DNA of 64,000 nucleotides. It comes from an uncultured Desulfurococcales archaeon. GTDB lineage: Archaea > Thermoproteota > Thermoprotei_A > EX4484-217-1. Location: the NCBI GenBank assembly GCA_964406965.1, contig CAYOTT010000001.1, positions 65,699 to 129,698 on the forward strand. Direction: 5' to 3'. The translations under genes and the position numbers were made by a program. The notes under the pieces are model-generated. The model was not told where the DNA came from. It made no database searches and was given only the letters and a program-made list of their open reading frames with translations. The stretch's first letter is position 1; every line of letters begins with the position of its first letter. Positions 33,371 to 47,204 of the stretch are shown one piece after another.

Positions 33371-34495
33371 ATGAAACCAAAAATAGTCTTTATTGACTAT
33401 TCAAAATACCCATTTCTCACATCTCCGCAAAAATATTTTGAGGAAAAATATGGTTACTCCCTAAGTTTATCAGAAATTTTTGAAATACACTTAACATCGC
33501 TTGTAGAGAAACGAGTAATTGAAAGAATAATTGGTGCAGTAAGGGGAAAAATATCAGAGCCAAAAGGACTTACTGATGATGAGGAAATAGTGTCTTTTTA
33601 TCTTTCACTCATAGTTTTAGGGGGAATAAACGATAAATGGCTTACATCACGTTATAGTGTCTTTGAAGCTAAAAGAATAAAGAAACATTTAGATAAAGAA
33701 AAGCCGGAGATTTTAGAAGCCATAGGTAAAATTTTAGGTTTAAACATACAATACTTAGGATCTAACAAAGCCTATAAAGTACTTCATGATATTAGAAAGG
33801 GGAGAGCAATTTACACTTACCTCCCATTTAAAGTAACAGTATATGATTACTTAAAATCCTTAAGATTACATACTGATCTCTCATGGAAGCTTTCAAACCA
33901 AATAGTAAGTGAAGGCTACATATACCTCACTCATCAACGGGTAAGTAGATTTTTGGAAGAAATAATATCACAAAAAATAGCTGAAATGGTTAAGCCCATT
34001 GAAATCGATGTGTTACCTGAGAAAATTAAAAAACTTGTAAAAGCAGTCTCCAAAGAGTACTACATCGTTAGAAAGGAACATGTAAAGGAAGCACTAAAAT
34101 TTAGTTTACGAGAGAAATTTGAAGAACTAAAATCTCTGGAGATAATTGAGCCGGAAGCATTTCCTCCATGTATTAAAACATTATATGATGAAGCAATAGA
34201 GGGAAAACATCTATCACACCATGCAAGATTTGCGTTAGCATCGTTTCTTCTTAACATAGGTTTAAATGTTGACTCGGTAGTTAACGTCTTTAGAAAACTG
34301 CCTGACTTTAACGAAACAATTGCAAGATACCAAGTTGAACACCTAGCTGGCCTTAGAGGGTCAAGAAAGAGATATAAACCTTATAACTGCGACACTATGA
34401 GAACATTAGGCCTTTGTGTTTCTGAATGCAGAGTGAAAAATCCCTTAGTATACTATTATAGAGAAGTTTTAAGAAGAATGTCAAAGAGAAGTTAA
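33371..34495 (+). CDS. priL: DNA primase large subunit PriL.
   Basis: C-terminal Fe-S domain pattern PPCIKTLYDEA...HHARFALASFLLNIG plus additional Cys. Confidence 0.65.
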   Translation: MKPKIVFIDYSKYPFLTSPQKYFEEKYGYSLSLSEIFEIHLTSLVEKRVIERIIGAVRGKISEPKGLTDDEEIVSFYLSLIVLGGINDKWLTSRYSVFEAKRIKKHLDKEKPEILEAIGKILGLNIQYLGSNKAYKVLHDIRKGRAIYTYLPFKVTVYDYLKSLRLHTDLSWKLSNQIVSEGYIYLTHQRVSRFLEEIISQKIAEMVKPIEIDVLPEKIKKLVKAVSKEYYIVRKEHVKEALKFSLREKFEELKSLEIIEPEAFPPCIKTLYDEAIEGKHLSHHARFALASFLLNIGLNVDSVVNVFRKLPDFNETIARYQVEHLAGLRGSRKRYKPYNCDTMRTLGLCVSECRVKNPLVYYYREVLRRMSKRS

Positions 34496-35016
34496 ATTTC
34501 AAAAACTATTTTTTCATATCCGCTTATTTTATCGCCTTTCCTTGTCCAAATGTAAAGTATATTTGGTTTCACTAGGTCGAAATCCCCTGAAACATATACC
34601 TCCTTTACTTTTGCTTTTTCGGGAAAGAACCAGTATATTTCATAATCGTACTCTGCTACTTCTTCTTCATAAAAGTCTTCAAAAACGTTTTCTCCTCTCC
34701 TTAAATTACCTTTGAAACGTATAAAGTAGAGTACATATGGATGATCTCTATAACCAGCAAAGTCTATATTGACCATGAGAACTCTAGGTTTAACTCTTAC
34801 ACTGTTCACGAATATTTTTTCTCTTGAAAGAAAATTCTCCATAGCGTTATGAAGCCTACTTATTTCGACATAGTATTCTTCAGGCTTATGTATTAAGTGA
34901 TAATAGTATTCGTCCTCATCATAATAAATAAACCTTAGTATTTGATTAAACATTCCTTTACGTTCAACTATAAAGTAGGATTCTCCATGAATAGGTATGA
35001 GGTTCAACAGCATCAT
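34492..35016 (-). CDS. Hypothetical Tyr-rich protein.
   Basis: ORF only. Confidence 0.35.
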   Translation of the reverse strand: MMLLNLIPIHGESYFIVERKGMFNQILRFIYYDEDEYYYHLIHKPEEYYVEISRLHNAMENFLSREKIFVNSVRVKPRVLMVNIDFAGYRDHPYVLYFIRFKGNLRRGENVFEDFYEEEVAEYDYEIYWFFPEKAKVKEVYVSGDFDLVKPNILYIWTRKGDKISGYEKIVFEI

Positions 35017-35046
35017 CCTCTACATTGAAAAGGAGAAGAAGAGTAT

Positions 35047-35132
35047 ACGGGGGGCCATGACGCCTAGGGGTGGAGTCTCCCGTGTTCACCCCTACCCGCG
35101 ACACGGGTTGAGGTTACACGGGCCGTGGATTC
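35047..35132. ncRNA. GC-rich (about 65% GC) ~86-nt structured element in an AT-rich intergenic region. Candidate stable ncRNA or structured leader of unknown class.
   Basis: Sharp compositional island. 8-bp stem AGGGGTGG/TCACCCCT; CCCGTG...CACGGG pairing; direct repeat ACACGGG x2. No tRNA cloverleaf, 5S or C/D motifs could be fitted. Confidence 0.4.
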
Positions 35133-35152
35133 CATTATTATTTACTAAAGTA

Positions 35153-36994
35153 TTACTTTTTTATTTGTTTCTCTTGTGTCTCCATGGGTTCGGGCCTTAT
35201 TTTAACCCATAATGGCCGTGGGTCTCCGATTACTCGAATAAGGACCTCTCCTGTTCTTAACCATGTCATTCTCTCTTTTTCTGCCTCATTTAGTTTCATA
35301 AACTTACTTACGCTTTCAATATAATCTTTGCTATTTGACCCGAAAACGGCGATTGTTCCAGCATTATCTAGGATTTCCTTTGGAAAATCAGTTATATCTT
35401 GGGAAGCTAAAGCTACTGCGAGTCCGTAGCCTCGTCCCTCCTTTACCAGGGACTTAATAATTTTTGTCCCAGAACGTGTATCCATAAAGCGCCATGCTTC
35501 ATCAAGTATTACTAAGCAACGTATAGTATTTGTTGGCGTTAGCGTTAAAATATAGTTAGCTAAGATCTGAAGTAATGCTAGAGTGTATAATTTACGGTAC
35601 TCCTCAGGCAGCCTATGTAAAAGAAATATTAGAGGCTTCTTAAAGTTAAGAGTATATACGTTACCGTTGAAGAATATCTTTGATCTTAAAGACTCAAGCT
35701 TTGTTAGTAAACTAAACTCAACATCCTTATCACCATAATTCTTAGAGACTTCGGCAACTGTTGATATTAAGTATTTGAAGCTGGGATTATTTGTTGATTC
35801 ATACGTTTTTATAAGTGACATGTATAGTAGATATTCCTCCTTGGAAGTTAATGATGATGCGCTTTTAATAAGCTCAATTATTTGCTTCGCTCTTATTCTA
35901 GGGCTTGTAAACCATGTGTATAATATGTTAACATTGTTTCTTTCAGGATCTATTATTTCAAAAGCACCTGTAGACTTTAAACCGATAAATTCCCCCCTCA
36001 AGTCGAAAATCCATACTGGAATTTCATATTCCTCAATAGCCCTTTTCGCTATTGTGTAAAGGAATGTTGTCTTACCCCTACCTGTAGGCCCTACTATCAC
36101 TATATGTTTAGTTAAGTACTTTTCGAAATCATAAAAGACCGGTGTACCATAGTCTATGTCTTCACCCAAATAAATACCCTTACCGGAAATCTTAGGTCTT
36201 TTAACATATCCTATGGGCATCATGAAGCCTATGTCAGACTCCAACATAATCTTATGTTTAGTTTCTTTAAGAACGCCTAAACTTATTGCTTCTAAAACTT
36301 CATCTTCAGTTGCTTTTCTAACTTCAAAACCCATTGAGGCTTTAAATGACGTTATCACTGTACGTGCTCTTTCCTGAATAGCCTTCATTAACCCCTTTTC
36401 CGACGAAGCATGTGCTTTAACTATTATGTAGTACTTTATACTAATGGGTTTTTCACCCTTAACTATCCTATCATATATTTTTTCTAATCTTCTAAGTTTC
36501 TTTAAAATCTGAGGATTTGCGGGATCTGTTGTAACCATTATCTTATAATTTATAAGTTGTCTTTCTAAGTTCTTCACATATGATGTTGCATTTGCTTTTT
36601 TCTTCAGTAAAACTATTGAAACATCATTTTCGGTTGCTGTAATAAATCCTGTAAAGGATTTAATTTGTTGTATAAGGAAATCCGAAGCCACATCTTTGTA
36701 ACTATAAGGAACATCATCAACCACATATACTGCTAAGCCACTTATGATTTTATCCTTTTTCACAACTAAGATGTTACCTTTAACCACAATATTTGCTTCA
36801 CTAAACTCTAGTTTACGAGGCATTATTTTTGATGAAAGCTTTGGAAAAATCAGTGGTATGTTATAAGCGAAGATGAACAATAAGAACAAGATTATGTAAT
36901 GTTCTAATGCAACAAAATCCCTCAAGAAAACATAAGCTAAAACAAACGCTCCAATAACAATTATGAGCACTGGTATTTTTTCATTATACTCCAT
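35153..36994 (-). CDS. Membrane-anchored VirB4/TrbE-like AAA ATPase (CedB-like).
   Basis: Two N-terminal TM helices; Walker A GPTGRGKTT; Walker B ILDEAWRF (the DEAW of VirB4); GRGYGLAVALASQ. Confidence 0.6.
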   Translation of the reverse strand: MEYNEKIPVLIIVIGAFVLAYVFLRDFVALEHYIILFLLFIFAYNIPLIFPKLSSKIMPRKLEFSEANIVVKGNILVVKKDKIISGLAVYVVDDVPYSYKDVASDFLIQQIKSFTGFITATENDVSIVLLKKKANATSYVKNLERQLINYKIMVTTDPANPQILKKLRRLEKIYDRIVKGEKPISIKYYIIVKAHASSEKGLMKAIQERARTVITSFKASMGFEVRKATEDEVLEAISLGVLKETKHKIMLESDIGFMMPIGYVKRPKISGKGIYLGEDIDYGTPVFYDFEKYLTKHIVIVGPTGRGKTTFLYTIAKRAIEEYEIPVWIFDLRGEFIGLKSTGAFEIIDPERNNVNILYTWFTSPRIRAKQIIELIKSASSLTSKEEYLLYMSLIKTYESTNNPSFKYLISTVAEVSKNYGDKDVEFSLLTKLESLRSKIFFNGNVYTLNFKKPLIFLLHRLPEEYRKLYTLALLQILANYILTLTPTNTIRCLVILDEAWRFMDTRSGTKIIKSLVKEGRGYGLAVALASQDITDFPKEILDNAGTIAVFGSNSKDYIESVSKFMKLNEAEKERMTWLRTGEVLIRVIGDPRPLWVKIRPEPMETQEKQIKK

Positions 36995-37003
36995 AGCTTA
37001 CAC

Positions 37004-37186
37004 CTATTTTAAAATGCCCCTGTAATATATGATGAGTGTAATCGTAGGGATTATGATAAGCATTACTAGTAAAATAGTTAGCATGATATTCAAGTTGGCA
37101 CTATTCTTTACGATAATGTAAGTTACGTAAAGTACGTTAATTAAGTATAGTATTAGCATTGTTTTAAAATTAAAAGGATTCACCAT
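37004..37186 (-). CDS. Small two-TM membrane protein (CedA1/A2-like).
   Basis: 60 aa, two hydrophobic helices, tightly packed between the neighbouring genes. Confidence 0.4.
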   Translation of the reverse strand: MVNPFNFKTMLILYLINVLYVTYIIVKNSANLNIMLTILLVMLIIIPTITLIIYYRGILK

Positions 37187-37194
37187 TAACCACC

Positions 37195-38643
37195 TTACAC
37201 TCTATCTCTTATCGGTAAACGTAATTTTCTACCTCCAAGAGTATATGCGAAAGAGTAAGTTATCGAAACAAGAATCGTTAAATAAGTTACAGGTAATATT
37301 ATCCATTGAAAGAACACTTTACCTATGGCTTCACCTAAATTTTGAACATTAATATTAGAGTTTAAAGAGTTATCTATACCGCTAAAATACCCTTTATCTA
37401 CGAGTTGAATACTTTCTTTACCAACTACAACATAGGATACCTCTATAACCGTAGATCCTTTAGGTAAGTGGAAGCTTATGGTTGAAACATTTACATTGTT
37501 CCAAGTATAGCTTCTACTGGTAAATTTAATTTCATCATTGTTCACCTTCAACTTTGTTAATTTCGCAGCTTTAGGGATGTAGGCGATTACTGCTTCTTGT
37601 GGTTCATTCAAAACTATATTAAGAACGTACGTGTTTCCTTGTTCATAGACTTCAGCATTATTTACTTCATTCTGTAATATTAAAAGAACTGTATGGCCAA
37701 AATAAATAACATTATTTAGTGTAAAGTCATGTATGTAGTCTGCGTCGGGATCCAAATAGGGATTGTAGAGAAATTCGTTCATAGATATGTTCATAGAGCT
37801 TATGCTAATACCTAAGTAGCTGAGCTTAACGTAAAATCCGTTTACTTTTGCAGGTAATCCTCCAAAGGGTCTTCCAGCATTATAAAAGCCATTTTCGTCA
37901 GTATAGTATATAGCTATAGGATCTATGCTACTTTCTTTAAGAAACCATTCCGTTTTAATATACGGTATAGGCTTCCCCATAATATCTTTAACTAATCCCT
38001 TAGCAAAAAATACTCCAAGATCCTCCCTAGGCTTAAGTGAACTACTTATACTCGTATTTGAAAGGGGATTATCTCCGCCTACACTCATAACATTTACAAA
38101 TGTTGGAAGAAGCGGGAGAGCTATTGTGAAAACTATAGACATAGCTATTAATGATGCCCCTGCGCTTCTAGCTAATCTAAATGGTACTGCATAAAGTAGT
38201 ATTCCGAAGGCAAGTATTTTTGCAAAATACCCTTTAAACACTAATCCTAAAACAAAGAAAAACTCCATAACTATAAGCGTATATGTAGCTATACTAGTTA
38301 TTGGTCCTAAGAAAGATGCAACTAAAGCTCTTCCTCCAGCTTGAGATATAGCTAAAGAAATACTTATTAGCAGTGAAATAAATGAACCTAAAATAGCTAT
38401 TCTTTCAATAAGCCAGTTAAAGTAAAGGTTCCAACTAACTCCCAAAATACCTCCAAAATAGGATGTAGCTTCAATTATCGATGTAAACAATAAAACTAAA
38501 ATCGTTACTGCAAACGAATCGTAAATTAAAGTCGGCGCCCATTTCTTAATGCTCCAAACAGGTATAGGTAACAAGTATATAAGTACACCTAGGTAGTAAG
38601 TTAGTATAGCTAATGAATAGGCGATTATTAGAAACTCGTCCAT
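37195..38643 (-). CDS. Polytopic membrane protein with a large extracytoplasmic domain (CedA-like candidate).
   Basis: About 6 N-terminal TM helices, a soluble domain of about 240 aa rich in Asn/Tyr, and a C-terminal TM. Confidence 0.45.
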   Translation of the reverse strand: MDEFLIIAYSLAILTYYLGVLIYLLPIPVWSIKKWAPTLIYDSFAVTILVLLFTSIIEATSYFGGILGVSWNLYFNWLIERIAILGSFISLLISISLAISQAGGRALVASFLGPITSIATYTLIVMEFFFVLGLVFKGYFAKILAFGILLYAVPFRLARSAGASLIAMSIVFTIALPLLPTFVNVMSVGGDNPLSNTSISSSLKPREDLGVFFAKGLVKDIMGKPIPYIKTEWFLKESSIDPIAIYYTDENGFYNAGRPFGGLPAKVNGFYVKLSYLGISISSMNISMNEFLYNPYLDPDADYIHDFTLNNVIYFGHTVLLILQNEVNNAEVYEQGNTYVLNIVLNEPQEAVIAYIPKAAKLTKLKVNNDEIKFTSRSYTWNNVNVSTISFHLPKGSTVIEVSYVVVGKESIQLVDKGYFSGIDNSLNSNINVQNLGEAIGKVFFQWIILPVTYLTILVSITYSFAYTLGGRKLRLPIRDRV

Positions 38644-38677
38644 TACTTAACCCTTATAGTACCACTCATTATATTGA

Positions 38678-38992
38678 CTAAGTTGATGAGGCTATGTACT
38701 TTATTAAAGCAAAAATGCTTGTTCCTACAGCTAGCCAGAATGCACCTAAAATAGCATCTTCAACTATGTCCTGTCCAAACCTTTTTACTCTATATATTGG
38801 AATAGGTGAGCCCTTTAGAAGCCACCCAATGGCCCATGAAAGCATGAAGAGAGCCCATGCTGCAATAACTACTCTGTTAGTTAAATCATTGATTAGCGCT
38901 TCTATATCCACAACTATCCCCCCTAAGAATATATTGCTTTTTAAAAGGCTTTTTTGGGCTTTTAAAAAGCAATTATTTAAGATGATTCTCAA
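38678..38992 (-). CDS. Small membrane protein.
   Basis: 104 aa, two or three hydrophobic helices. Confidence 0.4.
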   Translation of the reverse strand: MRIILNNCFLKAQKSLLKSNIFLGGIVVDIEALINDLTNRVVIAAWALFMLSWAIGWLLKGSPIPIYRVKRFGQDIVEDAILGAFWLAVGTSIFALIKYIASST

Positions 38993-39029
38993 AATACTTT
39001 TATAGTTGCTACTACGGTAATACTTTTGG

Positions 39030-39278
39030 GTGATAATTCTTTTGAGTGTATTATGTCTTAACGATACAGTTGTTGTGACTTTTAAAGTAAGACGTGAACT
39101 TCTCGATAGACTTGATGAATTAGTAAAGAATGGATACTTTTCCAGTAGAAGTGAAGCAATAAGAACAGCAATAATAATGTTAATAAATAGTTATAGTAAA
39201 GGAGAAGGAAATGGGGAAAAACTTAGTAAAAGAAATTTAAAGGAGATTTTTGGTCCTAGACTTACTGTTTTAGGCTAA
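39030..39278 (+). CDS. Ribbon-helix-helix (CopG-like) protein; the true start is probably internal (GTG near 39075).
   Basis: VVVTFKVRRELLDRLDELVKNGYFSSRSEAIRTAIIMLI, paralogous to the product of 14519..14680. Confidence 0.5.
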   Translation: MIILLSVLCLNDTVVVTFKVRRELLDRLDELVKNGYFSSRSEAIRTAIIMLINSYSKGEGNGEKLSKRNLKEIFGPRLTVLG

Positions 39279-39471
39279 TAATTTTCCCTCTAAAGGCAAT
39301 TTTAATCCTACTTAAGCTTGGTCTCTCCAATTTTGCGTTACACTTCGGACACACTCCACTATACCAGTTCATAATTTCGCTAGGTGTAGGTAAACCATAG
39401 TAATCTTGACCTACACGTTCAAACCTATATAATTCAAAACCACAGTTTTTACAGACATATATTACAGGCAT
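39262..39471 (-). CDS. Zinc-ribbon protein.
   Basis: CKNC...CPKC within 69 aa. Confidence 0.45.
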   Translation of the reverse strand: MPVIYVCKNCGFELYRFERVGQDYYGLPTPSEIMNWYSGVCPKCNAKLERPSLSRIKIAFRGKIISLKQ

Positions 39472-40470: not shown

Positions 40471-42504
40471 ATGCTGAAAAAGCATTGGCCAAAAATAGCT
40501 AAAGTATTTTGGTGTCCGAACTGCAATATTCCACTCATCAGTAGTAAATGCTACAAATGTGGAGGTGAAGGTATAGAAGTTAAACTTAGAGAACCAGCAG
40601 ATGCAAGAATAGCCTTCCCAAGAGATATAGAAACAGTAAAGGAAGCGTTTAAAGAAAAATTTGGTACAGAGAAAGGTTTTGAAAAGATAGCTAATTCCTC
40701 AAAAATAATTTTACTAAATAAAACAACCCACATAGATGATGCTAAAGAAATGGTAATTAATGGCAATAACGTTGGAATTCTACTGTTTAATCCCTTCACT
40801 TCAAAGTGGGGGTTTAGACCATCATATTATGGCTCTCTCAAAATATTGGAAGAAAACGAAGTGGAAACAGTAGCTGTTAGAGGCAATATTAAAGAGAACG
40901 AAGTATTGCCCTTCAGAAAACAAAGCATAAATGAGAACCAGTATGTTATCATAACAAATCTTAATGGAGAACCATTAGGTTTAGGTGCTGTACTCCGAAA
41001 CGGAAAAATTCGGGTAATTAAGAAGTATAGACAGAAGTTTATTTATGAAACATCAGAAAAATCAGCAACAATAAATGAGGTAATTAAGGGAAACATTGAT
41101 AAATTAGAGAGACAAGTTGAAGAAGCAAAAACCTTTCTTAAAAAAATGAATTCAAAAGCAAGGACGCCTGTTGTTGTCTCGTTCTCAGGGGGTAAAGATA
41201 GTTTAGTATCACTTCACTTAGCACTAAATAGCGTTAGCGAAATAACGTTGCTTTTCAATAATACAGGTATAGAGCTTCCAGAAACTTTAGAGACGGTTTT
41301 AAAAGTTTCTGAAGAATACGGATTAAAGCTTGAAATAGCTGATGCGAAAAACGCTTTTTGGGAATCTGTGAATGTTTTTGGACCGCCAGCAAGAGACTAT
41401 AGATGGTGCTGTAAAGTTGCAAAACTTGTTCCTTTAGCTAAGAAAATGCTTAAAAAATGGCCCTCTGGCGCGTTAAACATTGTTGGTCAAAGAGCATACG
41501 AGTCCCTCGAAAGAGCTAAGAGTACTAGAATTTGGCGTAACAAATGGGTTCCCATGGTAATAAGTGTCTCACCTATACAGTATTGGAGCCAGCTTTCAAT
41601 ATGGCTTTACATATTTAAAGAGAAACTTACCAAACATGTTAACCCATTATACTTTAAAGGTTTTGAAAGAATAGGATGCTTCATGTGCCCCGCCAGTAGA
41701 TTAGCTGAATTTGAAGAGGTTAAGAAAGCCCATCCTAACTTATGGAACAAATGGGAGAATTTCCTTTATAAATGGGCTCAAAGAATAAATGCACCTAAGG
41801 AATGGGTAACGCTGGGCTTATGGAGATGGCTTGGACCTGCAGCACCTAAGAAAGTTCTCTCAAGAAAAACCCAGTTTAATGCTTACGATTGGATTAGCAC
41901 TTATGAAAAATGGGTAGATACAAAGATATATTCATTTGAAAAAGAAGAAAAAGAAGACTCCATCATCGCTAAGGTAAAGTTAAGCAAGAAAATAGACTTA
42001 GATAGAGTCTTAAGAATCCTCACTATTTTGGGAAAAATAGCTAAAAAACATGCTGATGAGGTAATAGTATATAGCGGTGAAACTAAAACCCACTACATTC
42101 TTAGAAGAAGTGGTGAAATACTTGTTAAAACACAAGCTGGCAAGAGATGGGTTGAGGAGTTTTTAGATGCAGTAAAGCTTGCCTATAGAGCACATTACTG
42201 TGTAGAATGTGGTTCTTGCGAAGCCCTTTGTCCCTCTGGAGCGATCAAAGTAATTAATGCGAAACCAATAGTCCAAGAGCTGCTATGCCTTAAATGTAAG
42301 GCATGTAATGATGTGTGCCCTATAGCTGATGTTATGGTGGAGAAGTTGGTTTCAGCTATAATCTTTAATAGATACGATGCATGGAGAAGAAAGACTAAAA
42401 GAAGTAGAGAATACACTGCAAAATTACTTGCAGAATTAATGTTCAAAACAAAGTTTTTCTCTAAACACTTAGCTCTTCCAGAATCTCCTTGTTCTAATAA
42501 ATAA
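40471..42504 (+). CDS. Multidomain protein: N-terminal Zn ribbon, PAPS-reductase-like PP-loop domain, and C-terminal 2x[4Fe-4S] ferredoxin domain.
   Basis: CPNC...CYKC; VVVSFSGGKDS, NNTGIELPET, RDYRWCCK, GQRAYESLER; CVECGSCEALCP and CLKCKACNDVCP. 6 bp downstream of the acyltransferase. Confidence 0.65.
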   Translation: MLKKHWPKIAKVFWCPNCNIPLISSKCYKCGGEGIEVKLREPADARIAFPRDIETVKEAFKEKFGTEKGFEKIANSSKIILLNKTTHIDDAKEMVINGNNVGILLFNPFTSKWGFRPSYYGSLKILEENEVETVAVRGNIKENEVLPFRKQSINENQYVIITNLNGEPLGLGAVLRNGKIRVIKKYRQKFIYETSEKSATINEVIKGNIDKLERQVEEAKTFLKKMNSKARTPVVVSFSGGKDSLVSLHLALNSVSEITLLFNNTGIELPETLETVLKVSEEYGLKLEIADAKNAFWESVNVFGPPARDYRWCCKVAKLVPLAKKMLKKWPSGALNIVGQRAYESLERAKSTRIWRNKWVPMVISVSPIQYWSQLSIWLYIFKEKLTKHVNPLYFKGFERIGCFMCPASRLAEFEEVKKAHPNLWNKWENFLYKWAQRINAPKEWVTLGLWRWLGPAAPKKVLSRKTQFNAYDWISTYEKWVDTKIYSFEKEEKEDSIIAKVKLSKKIDLDRVLRILTILGKIAKKHADEVIVYSGETKTHYILRRSGEILVKTQAGKRWVEEFLDAVKLAYRAHYCVECGSCEALCPSGAIKVINAKPIVQELLCLKCKACNDVCPIADVMVEKLVSAIIFNRYDAWRRKTKRSREYTAKLLAELMFKTKFFSKHLALPESPCSNK

Positions 42505-45303
42505 TGTTTCAGCTTCTATGAGCGCTTTATAGAATTCGCTTTCATTTTCGAAAAACTTTCCAACTATTCTTGCCGCAGTTTTGTATCCCACACCAAATGT
42601 TGATAGAGCAATTATGGCTGGCTTACCAAACCTCAACACAAGATCAGCCTTTAACTTTTCCTCTCTTAACATAGCTTTCTCAGCAAGACTAAGTTTAAGA
42701 TTTCTTAGCATCTTACGCACAATAACTTCTATATCCCTTGATCCTATAGATGTTGTTGTTAAAAAACCTGACCCGCAAATATTACACTTAGGATAGTTCG
42801 GAAGATCGGCGATCCTAACATTGTCCATAACATTACCGCACATCAAACATATAAGCCTAACCCGCTTTTCTACAGCCCTACGCTTAAATAACTCTATTAT
42901 TTCCATTAAGGGAGTGAGTTTTACTGAAACATCATAGTAAGAATAAGCTGTTAATGCTTGCATAGTTAACGGTGAATAGTTCTCTAAGTAAACAAATTTC
43001 ACTTTAACCTTGCCTTTTCTAATTGAGTCAATGAATTTGAAAATAGCATTTAAATCTATTTTATCAACAGCTATTTCATTAAATGCCTCATAACCTATAG
43101 GTGTATCAACATAGTATGCTAAAATGTTTGAAACTTTTTTTACACTAACATCTTTCCTTATAGCTCCAAACCTTTTTGCCACATTATACAAGCGCCATTT
43201 AAATACATTACTTCTCTTAATATTTTCTCTTAGTAAGTACTTTAAATCCTCAACATTAACACTAACTAGGTCGTTAATTACTTCCTCAAAATGCACTATT
43301 GAGTTGCTCATCAGAATTACCCTATATGGGTCGCTTTTGCTTACAACATTTACTCCTCGCTTTCTTAGAAAGTATGTAAGTAGCATCATTAAGCCAAAAT
43401 TTCCTTTACTACCTAGGTGCGAATTTACAATAATATTTTTGCCTCCAATAATTTCAACTATAACCTCTTTATCCGTAGGAATCCACCCCGTTTTAGAATA
43501 ATGTTCCTTAATTTGCTTTCCAATGGAATTTAGAAGAGATTGTGAAGTTGGATATTTTTTAAGGATTGCAAGTCCCTTCTCTATTATTCTACGCTTTAAA
43601 GCACCTACTTCCCTGGAAACTTTATAATCAACAGGTATAAGTTCACCCTCCCATTTAGGAAGGGCGCCCCAAGAATCTTCAGCAGGCTTAACATAAACGT
43701 ACTTTTCATCATAATCTAACGTCTCCCAAACCTTTCCTGAAAGTAAAAATTTAGCTCCTACATTAAGTGATGAAACCACAAAGTCTTCGTCAAGCTGTCC
43801 TATTATAGTATTATCTATAATATTTTTAACTAGAAAATGTCTCGCATCAGGTATCATCGAAACATCATAATAGTAAATCTTAGTTCTCTTAGTTTTTCTC
43901 AGCATTTTTCCATCGAAAGAAATAACACCTATTGTTGAAGCAAAACTTAACGTTTCAATAAGGGTAGCATAGCTTAACTTTCTATAGTAAAAAGACCTCC
44001 TCAATAACTTAAAGACTTCGTCTACGGAGACTTCTCCGTATTCAAGAAGTAACCCGGCAGTTTCATAAACTATAATGTCAAGTGGATTTTCATAAATGCT
44101 TTCACTTTCTAAATTCTTATCAATAACTCTTCTTGCCAGTACAAGAGATTCTAATGCATCATCTACGTTAGCTAAGGCTATAACATACCCTTTTGACTTC
44201 TCAGTTTCTCTATGGCCAGATCTACCTACTCTTTGTAAAAGCTTTATTGCCTGTCTTGGAGAACCGTATTGAATAACTAGATCTACTTCACCTACATCTA
44301 TACCTAATTCTAAAGATGATGTTGCTACCACGTACCTTATAATGCCCCGTTTAAATTCTGATTCAAGAGTTAATCTAACATTTCTTGACAAGCTACCATG
44401 GTGCACTCCTACACTAATATTAAATATTCTCTTTAATCTTGAGGATAAGAGCTCAGCTAAATCTCTCGTGTTAGTGAAAACTATACCTGATTTAGATTTT
44501 TCAAGGATCTCAACTATCCTTCTCAATCTAGCCATGGTGCTAGGCGAGATACCTTCACGTAAAGCAATTATTTCATCTTCACTTGTAGGCTGAGGAACTT
44601 CAACAATAATCTCATATGGCTTCTGATAATATACTTCAACAACTTCAACATATCTAGGTCCCCCTAAAAACCTTTTAGCTGCTTCAACATTTCCTATAAC
44701 CGCCGAAAGCCCTATTCTTTGAAATTCCCTTCCGCAGAGCCTAACAAGTCTTTCCAAAGCTACTGAAAGTATTACACCCCTCTTACTACTCATTAGCTCG
44801 TTTACTTCGTCAACAATAACCCACTTAATATTTTTAAGAACCTTTCTCATAATAGCGTGAACTAGAAGGTAATGAAGGGTTTCAGGAGTTGTTATTAGCA
44901 TATGTGGTGGATTTTCTGCTATCTTTCTTCTAAAATAGTAAGTTGTATCGCCATGTCTTACAGCTATATTTAAACCTATATCTTTAGCTATTTTCCCCAT
45001 TCTTACTAAAATATCTCTATTTAAAGCTCTAAGAGGTGTTATGTAAAGTGCTTGAATTCCACTTGTAAAATTCTTTTCAACAATTTTCGAGTATATGGGG
45101 AATAATGCTGCCTCGGTTTTTCCCGCCCCTGTTGGGGCTACGATTAACGTATTATAACCTTTAAGTATGAGTGGTATAGCTTTACTCTGAACTTTTGTAG
45201 GCTCTAAATACCCATATTTTTGAATAACACTTTTGAGTTTAGGGTTCAGCATGTTAAATACGTTCTTCTCATTTAAAGCGTACTTGTTTTTACTGCCAAG
45301 CAT
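42469..45303 (-). CDS. lhr: Lhr-like large ATP-dependent helicase (DEAD/DEAH box, superfamily 2).
   Basis: Motif I APTGAGKT, DEVNE, helicase C motifs (QRVGRSGHR); about 940 aa. Confidence 0.85.
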   Translation of the reverse strand: MLGSKNKYALNEKNVFNMLNPKLKSVIQKYGYLEPTKVQSKAIPLILKGYNTLIVAPTGAGKTEAALFPIYSKIVEKNFTSGIQALYITPLRALNRDILVRMGKIAKDIGLNIAVRHGDTTYYFRRKIAENPPHMLITTPETLHYLLVHAIMRKVLKNIKWVIVDEVNELMSSKRGVILSVALERLVRLCGREFQRIGLSAVIGNVEAAKRFLGGPRYVEVVEVYYQKPYEIIVEVPQPTSEDEIIALREGISPSTMARLRRIVEILEKSKSGIVFTNTRDLAELLSSRLKRIFNISVGVHHGSLSRNVRLTLESEFKRGIIRYVVATSSLELGIDVGEVDLVIQYGSPRQAIKLLQRVGRSGHRETEKSKGYVIALANVDDALESLVLARRVIDKNLESESIYENPLDIIVYETAGLLLEYGEVSVDEVFKLLRRSFYYRKLSYATLIETLSFASTIGVISFDGKMLRKTKRTKIYYYDVSMIPDARHFLVKNIIDNTIIGQLDEDFVVSSLNVGAKFLLSGKVWETLDYDEKYVYVKPAEDSWGALPKWEGELIPVDYKVSREVGALKRRIIEKGLAILKKYPTSQSLLNSIGKQIKEHYSKTGWIPTDKEVIVEIIGGKNIIVNSHLGSKGNFGLMMLLTYFLRKRGVNVVSKSDPYRVILMSNSIVHFEEVINDLVSVNVEDLKYLLRENIKRSNVFKWRLYNVAKRFGAIRKDVSVKKVSNILAYYVDTPIGYEAFNEIAVDKIDLNAIFKFIDSIRKGKVKVKFVYLENYSPLTMQALTAYSYYDVSVKLTPLMEIIELFKRRAVEKRVRLICLMCGNVMDNVRIADLPNYPKCNICGSGFLTTTSIGSRDIEVIVRKMLRNLKLSLAEKAMLREEKLKADLVLRFGKPAIIALSTFGVGYKTAARIVGKFFENESEFYKALIEAETLFIRTRRFWKS

Positions 45304-45389: not shown

Positions 45390-47204
45390 ATGCGTATTAA
45401 TAAAGTTATCTTAGTAGTAAACTTTGTTTTCATTGTAGCATTATTCTTATTGCTAGCTTTAATAAGTAATGTTGGTTCTTTAATTATAGTACCAATTCTT
45501 TATACGGTGCTAATAATATTCCAACTAATTACAGCTACACTTTTAGAATCTCCAATGCTGGCTTTTATAAACACCTTAGCGTTAACGTTTGGAATGAACA
45601 TTTTAAAGAGGTATGTACTCCTCATAGCGTTTTTAATGAGAAACGCATTACTCTATTATTTAGTTTTCTCAATAGACTCCTTCATAAGAAACCCTATAAC
45701 CTATCTAACTATATTTGCAACTTACATAACATTATATTATTCATGGACCTTCATAGTTAAGAAGGGAGATTCCCTCATAGAAAGTATCAAGAGAAGAAGT
45801 TTTAACATTGAAATAAAGCCTAAGAACGTACTTATAATAATGCTTCTTTCACTACTATTAATAATTTTAAGACCACTAACTTTACTTGACGAAATAATAT
45901 ATTTAACAGGAGTCTTAATTTCCTCATTATTCATACGTGAGCTAAGTCAAATAGCTATTTTATCACCTCTTCTCTCATGGATACTAATACCTTATACAAT
46001 ACATATCCCGCCAAGGGAGGTCTCGAGAGGAAAGAAGTTAGAAATCGTAAGGGAGGGTATTGTCTTAGGAAAACTTATAGCATCATTAACTTATGGTAAA
46101 CCTGTTAATGAATGGTTAAAGGACAGAGTATCAGCAACAAAATCGCCTTCATGGTATTGGCGAATAGAAGATGAAAAGTACGTTTTTAACCCATATGTGC
46201 AGGTTAATTACCATGTATTAATTGCGGGAACTAGCGGCACAGGCAAGTCTAGCTTAGCTAAAAAGCTAGTGAAAGAACTTTACCTTACATGGGGCATTCC
46301 TTCATTAATACTTGATCCTCATAATGAGTACGTGAATTTAATCAAACAACTAAATGGCGTAATTGTGGATGCTTCTAAAATATCAATTAATCCTCTAGAG
46401 CTTGATGGAGCATCACCGAGAGAGAGAACGGTTCAAGTAGCTGATACATTACAAAGAGTTTTTAAGCTAGGAAACCTTCAAAGAACTGTTCTTGAAGACT
46501 TAATTGAAGAAGCTTACGCGGAAAAGGGAATACTAATAGACGATGAAGAATCTTGGAATAATACTCCTCCGACCTTCCAAACATTACTTAGGGTTGTCGA
46601 GAAAAGAATAGAATATGCGAGAACTTCAGCTGAAAGAGCTAGATATGAAAGTTTAAAACCATATTTAAGAACTCTCTCCATCACCATATTTAGAAATACT
46701 ACAATAGAGTTTCAAAAACTCCTTGAAAAACCAAGTGTAATAGCTATGGCTAATTTGCCAGGAGAATACGTTAAATCTATTCTTGCTGAAACTGTTCTTA
46801 GAAAAATAGCTCATAAAATGTACGCTGCTGGTGAGAAGCAAAGACTTCTAAACTATATAGTAATAGATGAGGCGCATAGATTATGCAGGAGAGGAGTTGA
46901 ACCATCGCTTGTAGCAAAGCTAATGATGGAAAGTAGAAAATATGGTATAGGCTTCATAATTATAACTCAGCAACCATTAGACATTGACGAATCCATAGTT
47001 GCAAATGCAGCTACCAAAATATCTTTCAAACTCGCAGAACCGGAGAATTTAGATTATATAGCTAAAACGTTTGCAGGATTCGTTACTGATAATAGATATG
47101 ATATGGTGAGAAAGGCATTATACTATTTACCAATGTTTCATGCCATAATTAAAGATAGTGTAGTGAACGATCCTATCATAGTTAGAATAGATATTTCAAG
47201 TTAA
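45390..47204 (+). CDS. Membrane-anchored HerA/FtsK-superfamily (DUF87-like) ATPase.
   Basis: About 6 N-terminal TM helices; Walker A AGTSGTGKSS; Walker B VIDEAHRL; RKYGIGFIIITQQP. Confidence 0.65.
   Translation: MRINKVILVVNFVFIVALFLLLALISNVGSLIIVPILYTVLIIFQLITATLLESPMLAFINTLALTFGMNILKRYVLLIAFLMRNALLYYLVFSIDSFIRNPITYLTIFATYITLYYSWTFIVKKGDSLIESIKRRSFNIEIKPKNVLIIMLLSLLLIILRPLTLLDEIIYLTGVLISSLFIRELSQIAILSPLLSWILIPYTIHIPPREVSRGKKLEIVREGIVLGKLIASLTYGKPVNEWLKDRVSATKSPSWYWRIEDEKYVFNPYVQVNYHVLIAGTSGTGKSSLAKKLVKELYLTWGIPSLILDPHNEYVNLIKQLNGVIVDASKISINPLELDGASPRERTVQVADTLQRVFKLGNLQRTVLEDLIEEAYAEKGILIDDEESWNNTPPTFQTLLRVVEKRIEYARTSAERARYESLKPYLRTLSITIFRNTTIEFQKLLEKPSVIAMANLPGEYVKSILAETVLRKIAHKMYAAGEKQRLLNYIVIDEAHRLCRRGVEPSLVAKLMMESRKYGIGFIIITQQPLDIDESIVANAATKISFKLAEPENLDYIAKTFAGFVTDNRYDMVRKALYYLPMFHAIIKDSVVNDPIIVRIDISS

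What the first reader, a model, noticed from the sequence alone, without database searches (positions are those of the whole stretch)
35153..38992. Ced-like DNA-transport module: small TM protein, polytopic membrane protein, small TM protein, membrane-anchored VirB4-like ATPase
Four tightly packed minus-strand genes with 9-35 bp gaps: a 104-aa membrane protein, a 482-aa protein (about 6 TM helices plus a large extracytoplasmic domain), a 60-aa two-TM protein, and a 613-aa ATPase. The ATPase has N-terminal TM helices, Walker A GPTGRGKTT and a DEAW Walker B typical of VirB4/TrbE. This architecture matches the crenarchaeal Ced DNA-import system (CedA1-CedA-CedA2-CedB) described in Sulfolobus acidocaldarius. 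No TraG/VirD4 coupling protein or integrase is present, which argues against an integrated conjugative plasmid. The 482-aa protein is larger than I would expect for CedA and carries a big Asn/Tyr-rich outer domain, so it may be a divergent variant. The genomic context is rich in DNA repair and replication genes (Hjc, Nth, PriL, PCNA, Lhr).
Basis: partly seen in the sequence, partly recalled or inferred. Interest (0 to 1): 0.6.

Follow-up and report, generated by a model that had tools for sequence, protein, structure and literature searches.

The report
Archaeal Ced DNA-import gene cluster
This is a chromosomal copy of the known archaeal Ced machine (pilin, membrane channel, small membrane protein, motor ATPase) that Sulfolobus uses to take up DNA from neighbouring cells, here in an uncultured hot-spring archaeon. 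Its channel protein carries a surface-exposed two-domain extension that is common outside Sulfolobus but that I did not find described in the papers I could search.

Summary
Four co-oriented minus-strand genes with 8-34 nt gaps and SD-like motifs form an operon at 35153-38911. The pilin gene is 77 aa, not 104. It passes the NCBIfam CedA1 cutoff and matches the cryo-EM-solved Aeropyrum pernix Ced pilin (E 3e-23). The 613-aa ATPase aligns end to end with the CedB model (E 7e-83). The 482-aa protein is CedA (E 5e-48) with a 2-beta-sandwich ectodomain inserted between TM6 and TM7. That "oversized" CedA is not an oddity. An exhaustive profile search finds 107 long-form against 22 short-form 50%-identity clusters among the top 146 hits. 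One long form is in cultured Ignicoccus hospitalis. The short form is one Sulfolobaceae clade. The 60-aa ORF is real (syntenic, dN/dS 0.27) but shows no CedA2 or pilin homology. The integrated-plasmid rival is refuted: all 64 kb are housekeeping genes, synteny holds across genomes, and CedB scores only ~34 bits against pNOB8 ATPases. A nearby second membrane ATPase is not CedD. Verdict: a new member of a known system. Side finding: a conserved, covarying, unannotated GC-rich RNA element just downstream of cedB.

The parts
38678..38911 (-). cedA1: 77-aa VirB2-like Ced pilin (GTG start)
   Evidence: NCBIfam Ced_CedA1 120.6 bits, above the cutoff of 100. PDB 8DFU A. pernix Ced pilin, E 2.8e-23 over residues 1-73. 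100% and 96% identical in L001 and L002, with dN=0 against 20 synonymous changes. GGGGGG SD-like motif 5 nt upstream.
38059..38643 (-). cedA, N-terminal membrane domain (residues 1-195, about 6 TM helices, VirB6-like). The first hairpin is homologous to the pilin.
37324..38058 (-). cedA ectodomain (residues 196-440): two tandem transthyretin/CarboxypepD_reg-type beta-sandwiches inserted between TM6 and TM7
37195..37323 (-). cedA C-terminal TM helix (TM7) and basic cytoplasmic tail
   Evidence: AF2 helix 433-469. 88-98% identical in relatives. Aligns to the C-terminus of the short CedA.
37004..37186 (-). 60-aa two-TM protein, at the CedA2 position, tightly coupled to cedB
   Evidence: Conserved position and length in L001, L002, L005 and L007. 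dN/dS 0.27. AGGTGG SD-like motif. No family hit. No similarity to the pilin.
35153..36994 (-). cedB: membrane-anchored VirB4/HerA-superfamily ATPase (2 N-terminal TM helices, NTD, P-loop domain)
   Evidence: NCBIfam DNA_import_CedB E 7.1e-83, residues 10-599 matched to model positions 5-586 of 590. Pfam DUF87 and AAA_10. TM scan. Only 34 bits to the pNOB8 ATPases.
38912..39029 (.). Divergent promoter region between cedA1 and an RHH regulator gene. Contains a 15-nt perfect inverted repeat (38933-38947 / 38959-38973) made of two TATA-like boxes.
   Evidence: Inverted repeat found. About 75 nt are nearly invariant between the window and L002 although CedA is only 58% identical. A role as promoter or operator is inferred.

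Best explanation
This is the chromosomal Ced (crenarchaeal exchange of DNA) operon of an uncultured Desulfurococcales-like archaeon. It is a domesticated, minimal type-IV-secretion-like machine.

Proposed mechanism:
- CedA1 (77 aa) polymerises, together with membrane lipids, into a VirB2-like conjugative-type pilus.
- CedA (482 aa) is the VirB6-like polytopic platform or channel. Its pilin-like N-terminal hairpin probably docks the pilus base.
- CedA's two beta-sandwich domains, between TM6 and TM7, project into the space under the S-layer. They probably form a collar or stalk, or a contact module, around the pilus base.
- The 60-aa two-TM protein is a small membrane partner, translationally coupled to the motor.
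- CedB (613 aa) is the membrane-anchored VirB4-like hexameric ATPase that powers pilus assembly and/or DNA translocation.

By homology with S. acidocaldarius and Sa. islandicus genetics, the machine imports chromosomal (probably single-stranded) DNA from a neighbouring cell for recombinational repair.

Shown here: the identity and architecture of the four genes, the homologies, the chromosomal and non-mobile context, the fold of the ectodomain, and its distribution across the family.
Inferred: oligomeric assembly, the role of the ectodomain, the direction of DNA transfer, and damage induction.
For: - NCBIfam hits to CedA1 (above cutoff), CedA and CedB (full length).
- The pilin matches the solved A. 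pernix Ced pilus 8DFU, E 2.8e-23.
- The CedA N-terminus is homologous to the pilin, as published for CedA (PMC9905601).
- The gene order cedA1-cedA-small ORF-cedB is conserved down to 24-35% CedA identity.
- Short gaps and SD-like motifs before every gene.
- Purifying selection on all four genes.
- All 64 kb are housekeeping genes, and the PriL-HSP20-MetRS flank is syntenic in L001, L002 and L005.
- The literature places Ced in Desulfurococcales and Acidilobales as well as Sulfolobales (PMC11823120, PMC11868833).
Against: - CedA (164 bits, cutoff 330) and CedB (279 bits, cutoff 700) fall below NCBI's equivalog cutoffs. By that standard they are homologs outside the Sulfolobales-trained equivalog, not certified equivalogs.
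- No CedD, which is essential for import in Sulfolobales, is in the window. The nearby membrane ATPase failed the CedD test.
- The 60-aa protein has no CedA2 homology.
- Nothing in the sequence shows import rather than export, or damage induction.
Confidence: 0.85

Rival explanations
1. The same Ced-type pilus machine is present, but in this lineage it is used for something other than damage-induced DNA import. Options are constitutive adhesion or biofilm pili, DNA export or bidirectional transfer, or cell-cell recognition through the CedA ectodomain.
For: A. pernix makes Ced pili without UV treatment and lacks Ups pili (PMC9905601). CedA1 and CedE also contribute to export in Sa. islandicus (PMC11868833). 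The ectodomain resembles adhesin and shaft-pilin modules. No CedD is found in the window.
Against: The only genetics available for CedA and CedB show import only (PMC11868833, PMC11823120). The pilin is under extreme constraint (dN=0), as expected for a conduit. Nothing here specifically supports export.
Confidence: 0.1
2. The cluster is a remnant of an integrated conjugative plasmid or ICE of the pNOB8/pING type, whose TrbE-like ATPase and membrane proteins were left in the chromosome.
For: CedB belongs to the same VirB4/HerA superfamily. Such plasmids do integrate into crenarchaeal chromosomes (established knowledge).
Against: - CedB against the pNOB8 TrbE-like and TraG-like ATPases gives about 34 bits, limited to the Walker motifs, compared with 279 bits full-length to CedB.
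- The best plasmid hits overall are 20-26% identical bacterial TraC/VirB4.
- No integrase, transposase, tRNA or att-like repeat occurs in the 64 kb.
- The locus and its flanks are syntenic across genomes from 89% down to 35% CedA identity.
- GC content is only slightly below the window mean.
Confidence: 0.02
3. The membrane proteins form a substrate transporter unrelated to DNA transfer, and the ATPase is a HerA-type repair helicase that happens to be adjacent.
For: The context contains repair genes (Hjc, Lhr, PCNA, XPB-like). The ATPase also hits HerA models weakly.
Against: There are specific hits to CedA and CedA1, and none to any transporter family. The pilin matches a solved pilus. CedB aligns full-length to the CedB model, including its NTD, whereas HerA hits cover only the P-loop region.
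Confidence: 0.01

Closest known systems
Ced system of Sulfolobus acidocaldarius / Saccharolobus islandicus (CedA, CedA1, CedA2, CedB; later CedD and CedE)
   Same: Homologous pilin, VirB6-like CedA membrane domain with the same signature motifs, and full-length CedB homolog. A small two-TM protein is present in the cluster. The locus is chromosomal.
   Different: - Here all four genes form one operon. From my own recollection, not checked here, cedB is unlinked in S. acidocaldarius.
- CedA carries a ~235-aa two-sandwich ectodomain that Sulfolobaceae CedA lacks.
- The small protein is not homologous to CedA2.
- No CedD or CedE is in the window.
- CedA and CedB score below the equivalog cutoffs.
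Ced pilus of Aeropyrum pernix (PDB 8DFU; Beltran et al. 2023, PMC9905601)
   Same: The pilin aligns over its whole length without gaps (E 2.8e-23). The lineage is Desulfurococcales-type, and the published pilin carries no signal peptide.
   Different: Only the pilin could be compared. I could not retrieve the A. pernix CedA, so I do not know whether it has the ectodomain.
Long-form CedA homologs, e.g. Ignicoccus hospitalis WP_011998750.1 (508 aa, 'hypothetical protein'), and MAG proteins that PGAP names 'carboxypeptidase-like regulatory domain-containing protein'
   Same: Same architecture: TM domain, two beta-sandwiches, C-terminal TM helix. They match end to end with the profile.
   Different: 19-35% identity. 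None is annotated as CedA, and I found no paper that describes the ectodomain (the library is limited).
Bacterial conjugative T4SS core (VirB2 pilin, VirB6/TrwI, VirB4/TrwK; R388 structure 7o3v/7o41)
   Different: No VirB3, B5, B7-B11 or VirD4, and no relaxase. Sequence similarity is marginal. Transfer direction is opposite in the studied archaeal systems (PMC9905601). The ectodomain has no VirB6 counterpart that I could identify.
Ted system of Thermoproteales (TedA/TedB/TedC)
   Same: It is also a domesticated VirB2/VirB6/VirB4 set (PMC9905601).
   Different: Ted components have no recognizable sequence similarity to Ced (PMC9905601). Here the proteins hit the Ced models directly, and VirB4_CagE scores only 31 bits.

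Membership tests
Ced system (crenarchaeal exchange of DNA) | VirB2-like two-helix pilin CedA1 without a signal peptide | tested here: met
   NCBIfam NF041797, 120.6 bits, above the cutoff of 100. 8DFU, E 2.8e-23. Two hydrophobic helices.
Ced system (crenarchaeal exchange of DNA) | Polytopic (6-7 TM) VirB6-like CedA whose N-terminus is homologous to CedA1 | tested here: met
Ced system (crenarchaeal exchange of DNA) | Membrane-associated VirB4/HerA-like ATPase CedB | tested here: met
   NF041017, E 7.1e-83, residues 10-599 matched to model positions 5-586 of 590. Two N-terminal TM helices. Walker A and B present.
Ced system (crenarchaeal exchange of DNA) | NCBIfam equivalog-level scores for CedA (at least 330 bits) and CedB (at least 700 bits) | tested here: not met
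   164 and 279 bits. The models appear tuned to Sulfolobales. The CedA ectodomain has no counterpart in the 259-position model.
Ced system (crenarchaeal exchange of DNA) | CedA2 (second small two-TM protein; not universal, reported absent from A. pernix) | tested here: inconclusive
   A 60-aa two-TM ORF occupies the position next to cedA. It has no family hit at E<=1 and no profile similarity to CedA1. I did not confirm that the library holds a CedA2 model.
Ced system (crenarchaeal exchange of DNA) | CedD, the second (VirD4-like) membrane ATPase, essential for import in Sulfolobales | tested here: not met
   This holds for the window only. The one candidate (45390-47204) scores 67 bits against a cutoff of 600, in the P-loop domain only. 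Its full-length Sulfolobales orthologs P0228 and P0229 are not CedD. CedD may lie elsewhere in the genome.
Ced system (crenarchaeal exchange of DNA) | Chromosomal, not carried on a mobile element | tested here: met
   Housekeeping genes throughout, no integrase or tRNA, and conserved synteny.
Ced system (crenarchaeal exchange of DNA) | Mediates DNA import; induced by UV or DNA damage | not testable with these tools
   Requires genetics and transcriptomics. A. pernix expresses Ced pili without UV (PMC9905601).
Sulfolobales conjugative plasmids (pNOB8 type) / integrated copies | TrbE-like and TraG-like ATPases closely related to the plasmid versions, plus an integrase and plasmid backbone genes | tested here: not met
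   About 34 bits to both pNOB8 ATPases. No archaeal plasmid appears among the 15 best tblastn hits listed. No integrase or ParB/plasmid genes in the window.
Ted system / canonical VirB4-based archaeal T4SS | ATPase of the VirB4 (TedB) clade rather than the CedB clade | tested here: not met
   VirB4_CagE 31 bits, TrbE 22 bits and TraC 26 bits, against CedB 279 bits.

The most novel reading that the evidence does not exclude
The two-sandwich ectodomain of long-form CedA is the ancestral state of the Ced channel. It acts as a built-in stalk that spans to the S-layer, or as a partner-recognition module, and does the cell-surface job that Ups pili took over in Sulfolobaceae, where the domain was then deleted.

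Its fast divergence (37% identity where the pilin keeps 96%) would then reflect species-specific surface matching, and would make mate recognition in Ups-less archaea directly testable.
Probability: 0.2. Interest if true: 0.55.

Novelty: new member of a known kind. Interest (0 to 1): 0.3.

Why it matters
The locus adds a clean, single-operon Ced system from an uncultured Desulfurococcales-like lineage, and it confirms that sequence-only reading identified it correctly.

The useful increment is comparative. Most CedA proteins in public data are about 450-510 aa and carry an extracellular tandem beta-sandwich module. The model-organism (Sulfolobaceae) CedA is the truncated exception. Databases name the long form 'hypothetical' or 'carboxypeptidase-like regulatory domain protein'. 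Anyone modelling the Ced channel, or asking how Ups-less archaea find mating partners, should use the long form.

This is not a new kind of system.

Tried and rejected
1. Second membrane ATPase (45390-47204) as CedD: rejected. It shows only P-loop-level similarity to the CedD model. Its full-length Sulfolobales orthologs score nothing (P0228) or 43 bits (P0229) on the CedD model.
2. 174-aa protein downstream of cedB as a Ced component: rejected. It follows PriL in L001, L002 and L005 and is absent near ced in L006 and L007.
3. 60-aa protein as a pilin paralog (the published idea for CedA2): hhalign probability 0.06%. No VirB3 or CedA2 hit.
4. Positive selection on the ectodomain: not seen. dN/dS is 0.16, against 0.09 for the TM domain. 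It evolves faster, but under purifying selection.
5. The search for homologous proteins with a 42-sequence alignment returned only the same 17 proteins, so the search was wasted.
6. The afdb50 fold library was unavailable. Organism names for long forms came from one cluster look-up instead.
8. The literature query for a CedA ectodomain was too broad to be informative. An accession search found nothing. The original Ced paper (PMC4780597) is not held. The supplements did not give CedA lengths.
9. Rfam and tRNA searches of the GC-rich element found nothing.
10. The sigma-70 promoter scanner was not used because it does not apply to archaea.
Full report
OBSERVATION. The ORF listing confirms four co-oriented minus-strand ORFs: 35153-36994 (613 aa), 37004-37186 (60 aa), 37195-38643 (482 aa) and 38678-38992 (104 aa). 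The gaps are 9, 8 and 34 nt. Each start is preceded by a GGTG/GGGG Shine-Dalgarno-like motif. The 104-aa figure is an artefact of taking the first possible start codon. The family model matches residues 30-103 only, the public gene call is 77 aa, the L002 ortholog begins at the corresponding GTG, and GGGGGG lies 5 nt upstream of that GTG. The 613-aa protein has GPTGRGKTT and LDEAW motifs and two N-terminal hydrophobic helices. Against the 89%-identical relative L001, all genes are under purifying selection. The pilin has dN = 0 against 20 synonymous changes, CedB has dN/dS 0.09, CedA 0.13 and the 60-aa ORF 0.27. These are therefore real genes.

IDENTITY. NCBIfam gives DNA_import_CedB at E 7e-83 with an end-to-end alignment (model positions 5-586 of 590). 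It gives Ced_CedA at E 5e-48 for residues 3-196 plus a second stretch, and Ced_CedA1 at 120.6 bits, above the curated cutoff of 100. The local Pfam copy sees only DUF87/AAA_10 in the ATPase. The precomputed newer Pfam labels both the pilin and the CedA N-terminus as PF27251 'CedA1'. The 77-aa protein aligns without gaps to the cryo-EM-solved Aeropyrum pernix Ced pilin, 8DFU (E 2.8e-23). A profile of the 482-aa family also hits that pilin with its first 68 residues. hhalign of the pilin family against the CedA family gives 92.6% probability. This reproduces the CedA/CedA1 relationship published by Beltran et al. (PMC9905601). CedA and CedB fall below NCBI's equivalog cutoffs (330 and 700 bits). 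I read this as divergence from the Sulfolobales sequences on which those models appear to be built, not as evidence against homology.

HOW UNUSUAL IS IT? Not very. An exhaustive HMMER search of 1.84 billion representatives returned 257 proteins at E<=1e-3. Of the 146 top hits whose sequences I could measure, 107 are 425-525 aa, and most of those match the profile end to end. Only 22 are 250-300 aa and match in two stretches. The short ones carry the name 'DNA import protein CedA' from Sulfolobaceae. A direct alignment shows that they lack window residues ~214-447 and keep the membrane domain, the LPIPxxGxKKWAP and PFRxxRSxGA motifs, and TM7. Long forms include Ignicoccus hospitalis KIN4/I WP_011998750.1 ('hypothetical protein') and MAG proteins that PGAP calls 'carboxypeptidase-like regulatory domain-containing protein'. 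In a midpoint-rooted NJ tree of the TM domain, 16 of 19 short forms make one clade with long forms on both sides of the root. This suggests a single loss, but the internal branches are very short, so it is only suggestive. I found no paper in the held library that discusses this ectodomain.

DIVERGENCE PATTERN. Between the window and L002, the pilin is 96% identical, the CedA membrane domain 78%, TM7 88% and CedB 68%. The housekeeping PriL is 70% identical. The ectodomain is only 37% identical (its second sandwich 32%), and the 60-aa protein about 30%. dN/dS for the ectodomain is 0.16, so this is relaxed or lineage-specific constraint and not detectable positive selection.

THE 60-aa PROTEIN. 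The public contig does not call it. A 56-62-aa two-TM ORF nevertheless sits between cedA and cedB in L001, L002, L005 and L007. It overlaps the cedB start in L005 and L007, and in L007 CedB lacks its own TM helices. It has no CedA2, VirB3 or pilin similarity. I treat it as a lineage-specific small membrane partner of the motor. Calling it CedA2 is positional only.

CONTEXT AND RIVALS. Precomputed annotations and my own scans show only housekeeping genes across the 64 kb. These include Hjc and PINA, an HhH-GPD glycosylase, carboxylase subunits, MetRS, HSP20, PriL, Lhr, PCNA, a lipid reductase, GatCAB and an XPB-like helicase. There is no integrase, transposase or tRNA, and no Rfam hit. The cedB-(p174)-PriL-HSP20-MetRS flank is syntenic in L001, L002 and L005. 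CedB has no close plasmid relatives; the best are 20-26% identical bacterial TraC/VirB4. pNOB8 is in that collection, and its TrbE-like and TraG-like ATPases give only about 34 bits, confined to the Walker motifs. The integrated-plasmid rival is therefore refuted. VirB4/TrbE/TraC models score 22-31 bits against 279 for CedB, so this is Ced and not a Ted/VirB4-type system.

CedD. Two 2025 papers add CedD, a membrane VirD4-like ATPase essential for import that is also present in Desulfurococcales (PMC11823120, PMC11868833). The window has a second membrane-anchored DUF87 ATPase (45390-47204, 5-6 TM helices) placed divergently to Lhr. In L007 the orthologous ATPase-Lhr pair directly abuts cedA1. 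It nevertheless fails as CedD. It scores only 67 bits (cutoff 600), and only in the P-loop domain. Its full-length Sulfolobales orthologs (32% identity over 554 aa, including the membrane part) are not recognised by the CedD model. It is a third, uncharacterised family.

MECHANISM. By homology, CedA1 forms the lipid-containing pilus, and CedA forms the VirB6-like base or channel, with its pilin-like hairpin at the assembly site. CedB, tethered by its own two TM helices and probably by the 60-aa protein, powers assembly and/or ssDNA translocation. The ectodomain most likely forms a ring or stalk in the sub-S-layer space or contacts the partner surface. Import direction and damage induction are carried over from Sulfolobus genetics and are untested here.

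SIDE FINDING. The 136-nt spacer after cedB contains the only strong GC peak in the window, 66% against a mean of 35%. It is nearly invariant in L001 and L002, and a diverged copy follows cedB in L005. A metagenome scan with its 20-base motif found 13 loci. Eight of them lie 75-110 nt downstream of cedB homologs (31-92% identity). The other five lie between rpl23 and rpl22. A nested hairpin with a GA/(U)GAUGA internal loop that resembles a K-turn is supported by covariation. Four pairs change on both sides, and the covariation score is 0.221 against 0.128 for shuffles (0 of 500 reach it), with slid controls at or below 0.096. There is no Rfam or tRNA match. Because the neighbours vary on both sides, an independent small RNA gene is more likely than a ced 3'UTR. 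Its identity is unknown.

VERDICT. This is a new member of a known system. The modest added value is the recognition that ectodomain-bearing CedA is the prevalent, under-annotated form.

Noticed in passing
window 35036-35142 (-), between the cedB stop and the next gene: This is the only strong GC island in the 64 kb (66% against a mean of 35%). It is a ~85-105-nt element, nearly invariant in related genomes, forming a covarying nested hairpin with a K-turn-like GA/(U)GAUGA loop and an invariant tail CUCCACCCCUAGGCGUCA. It has no Rfam or tRNA match. Of 13 metagenomic copies, 8 follow cedB homologs and 5 lie between rpl23 and rpl22. It is probably an unannotated small RNA gene.
   Followed up: yes
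window 45390-47204 (+), divergent from Lhr at 42469-45303 (-): A 604-aa protein with 5-6 N-terminal TM helices and a HerA/VirB4-like P-loop domain. It is not CedD or CedB, but it has full-length orthologs in Sulfolobales chromosomes. The block PCNA-p130-Rpo13-ATPase-Lhr is conserved, and in L007 it sits directly next to cedA1. It is an uncharacterised third family of membrane HerA-like ATPases, possibly linked to DNA transactions.
   Followed up: partly
window 38933-38947 and 38959-38973 (cedA1 / RHH intergenic region): A perfect 15-nt inverted repeat (ATTGCTTTTTAAAAG / CTTTTAAAAAGCAAT, 11-nt spacer) lies 22-62 nt upstream of the cedA1 start. About 75 nt of this region are almost invariant between genomes whose CedA is only 58% identical. 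It is a candidate operator that overlaps TATA-like boxes.
   Followed up: partly
window 39030-39278 (+) and 39262-39471 (-): A ribbon-helix-helix protein, whose best NCBIfam hit is the aCcr1 cell-cycle regulator family (38.8 bits, below cutoff), and a 69-aa double-CxxC zinc-ribbon protein overlap tail to tail. They are conserved next to cedA1 in the close relatives (L001-L004) but not in the distant loci.
   Followed up: no
window 34492-35016 (-): A 174-aa soluble protein with no family hit. It is conserved (51-91% identity) between cedB and PriL in L001, L002 and L005 and absent near ced in L006 and L007. It seems to travel with PriL rather than with Ced.
   Followed up: partly
L006 (13543-15660), L007 (10961-12181), L020 (7399-): In more distant lineages the ced cluster lies next to fragments of the ribosomal-protein operon: L3-L4-L23 about 2 kb downstream in L006 and L020, and L2-S19 immediately after cedB in L007. 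In the loci where the GC-rich RNA sits between rpl23 and rpl22, rpl2 and rps19 are missing from their usual place.
   Followed up: no
P0235 (Ignicoccus hospitalis WP_011998750.1), P0237 and P0245: Long-form CedA homologs are annotated in public databases as 'hypothetical protein' or 'carboxypeptidase-like regulatory domain-containing protein', never as CedA. The NCBIfam CedA equivalog cutoff excludes the commonest form of the family.
   Followed up: partly
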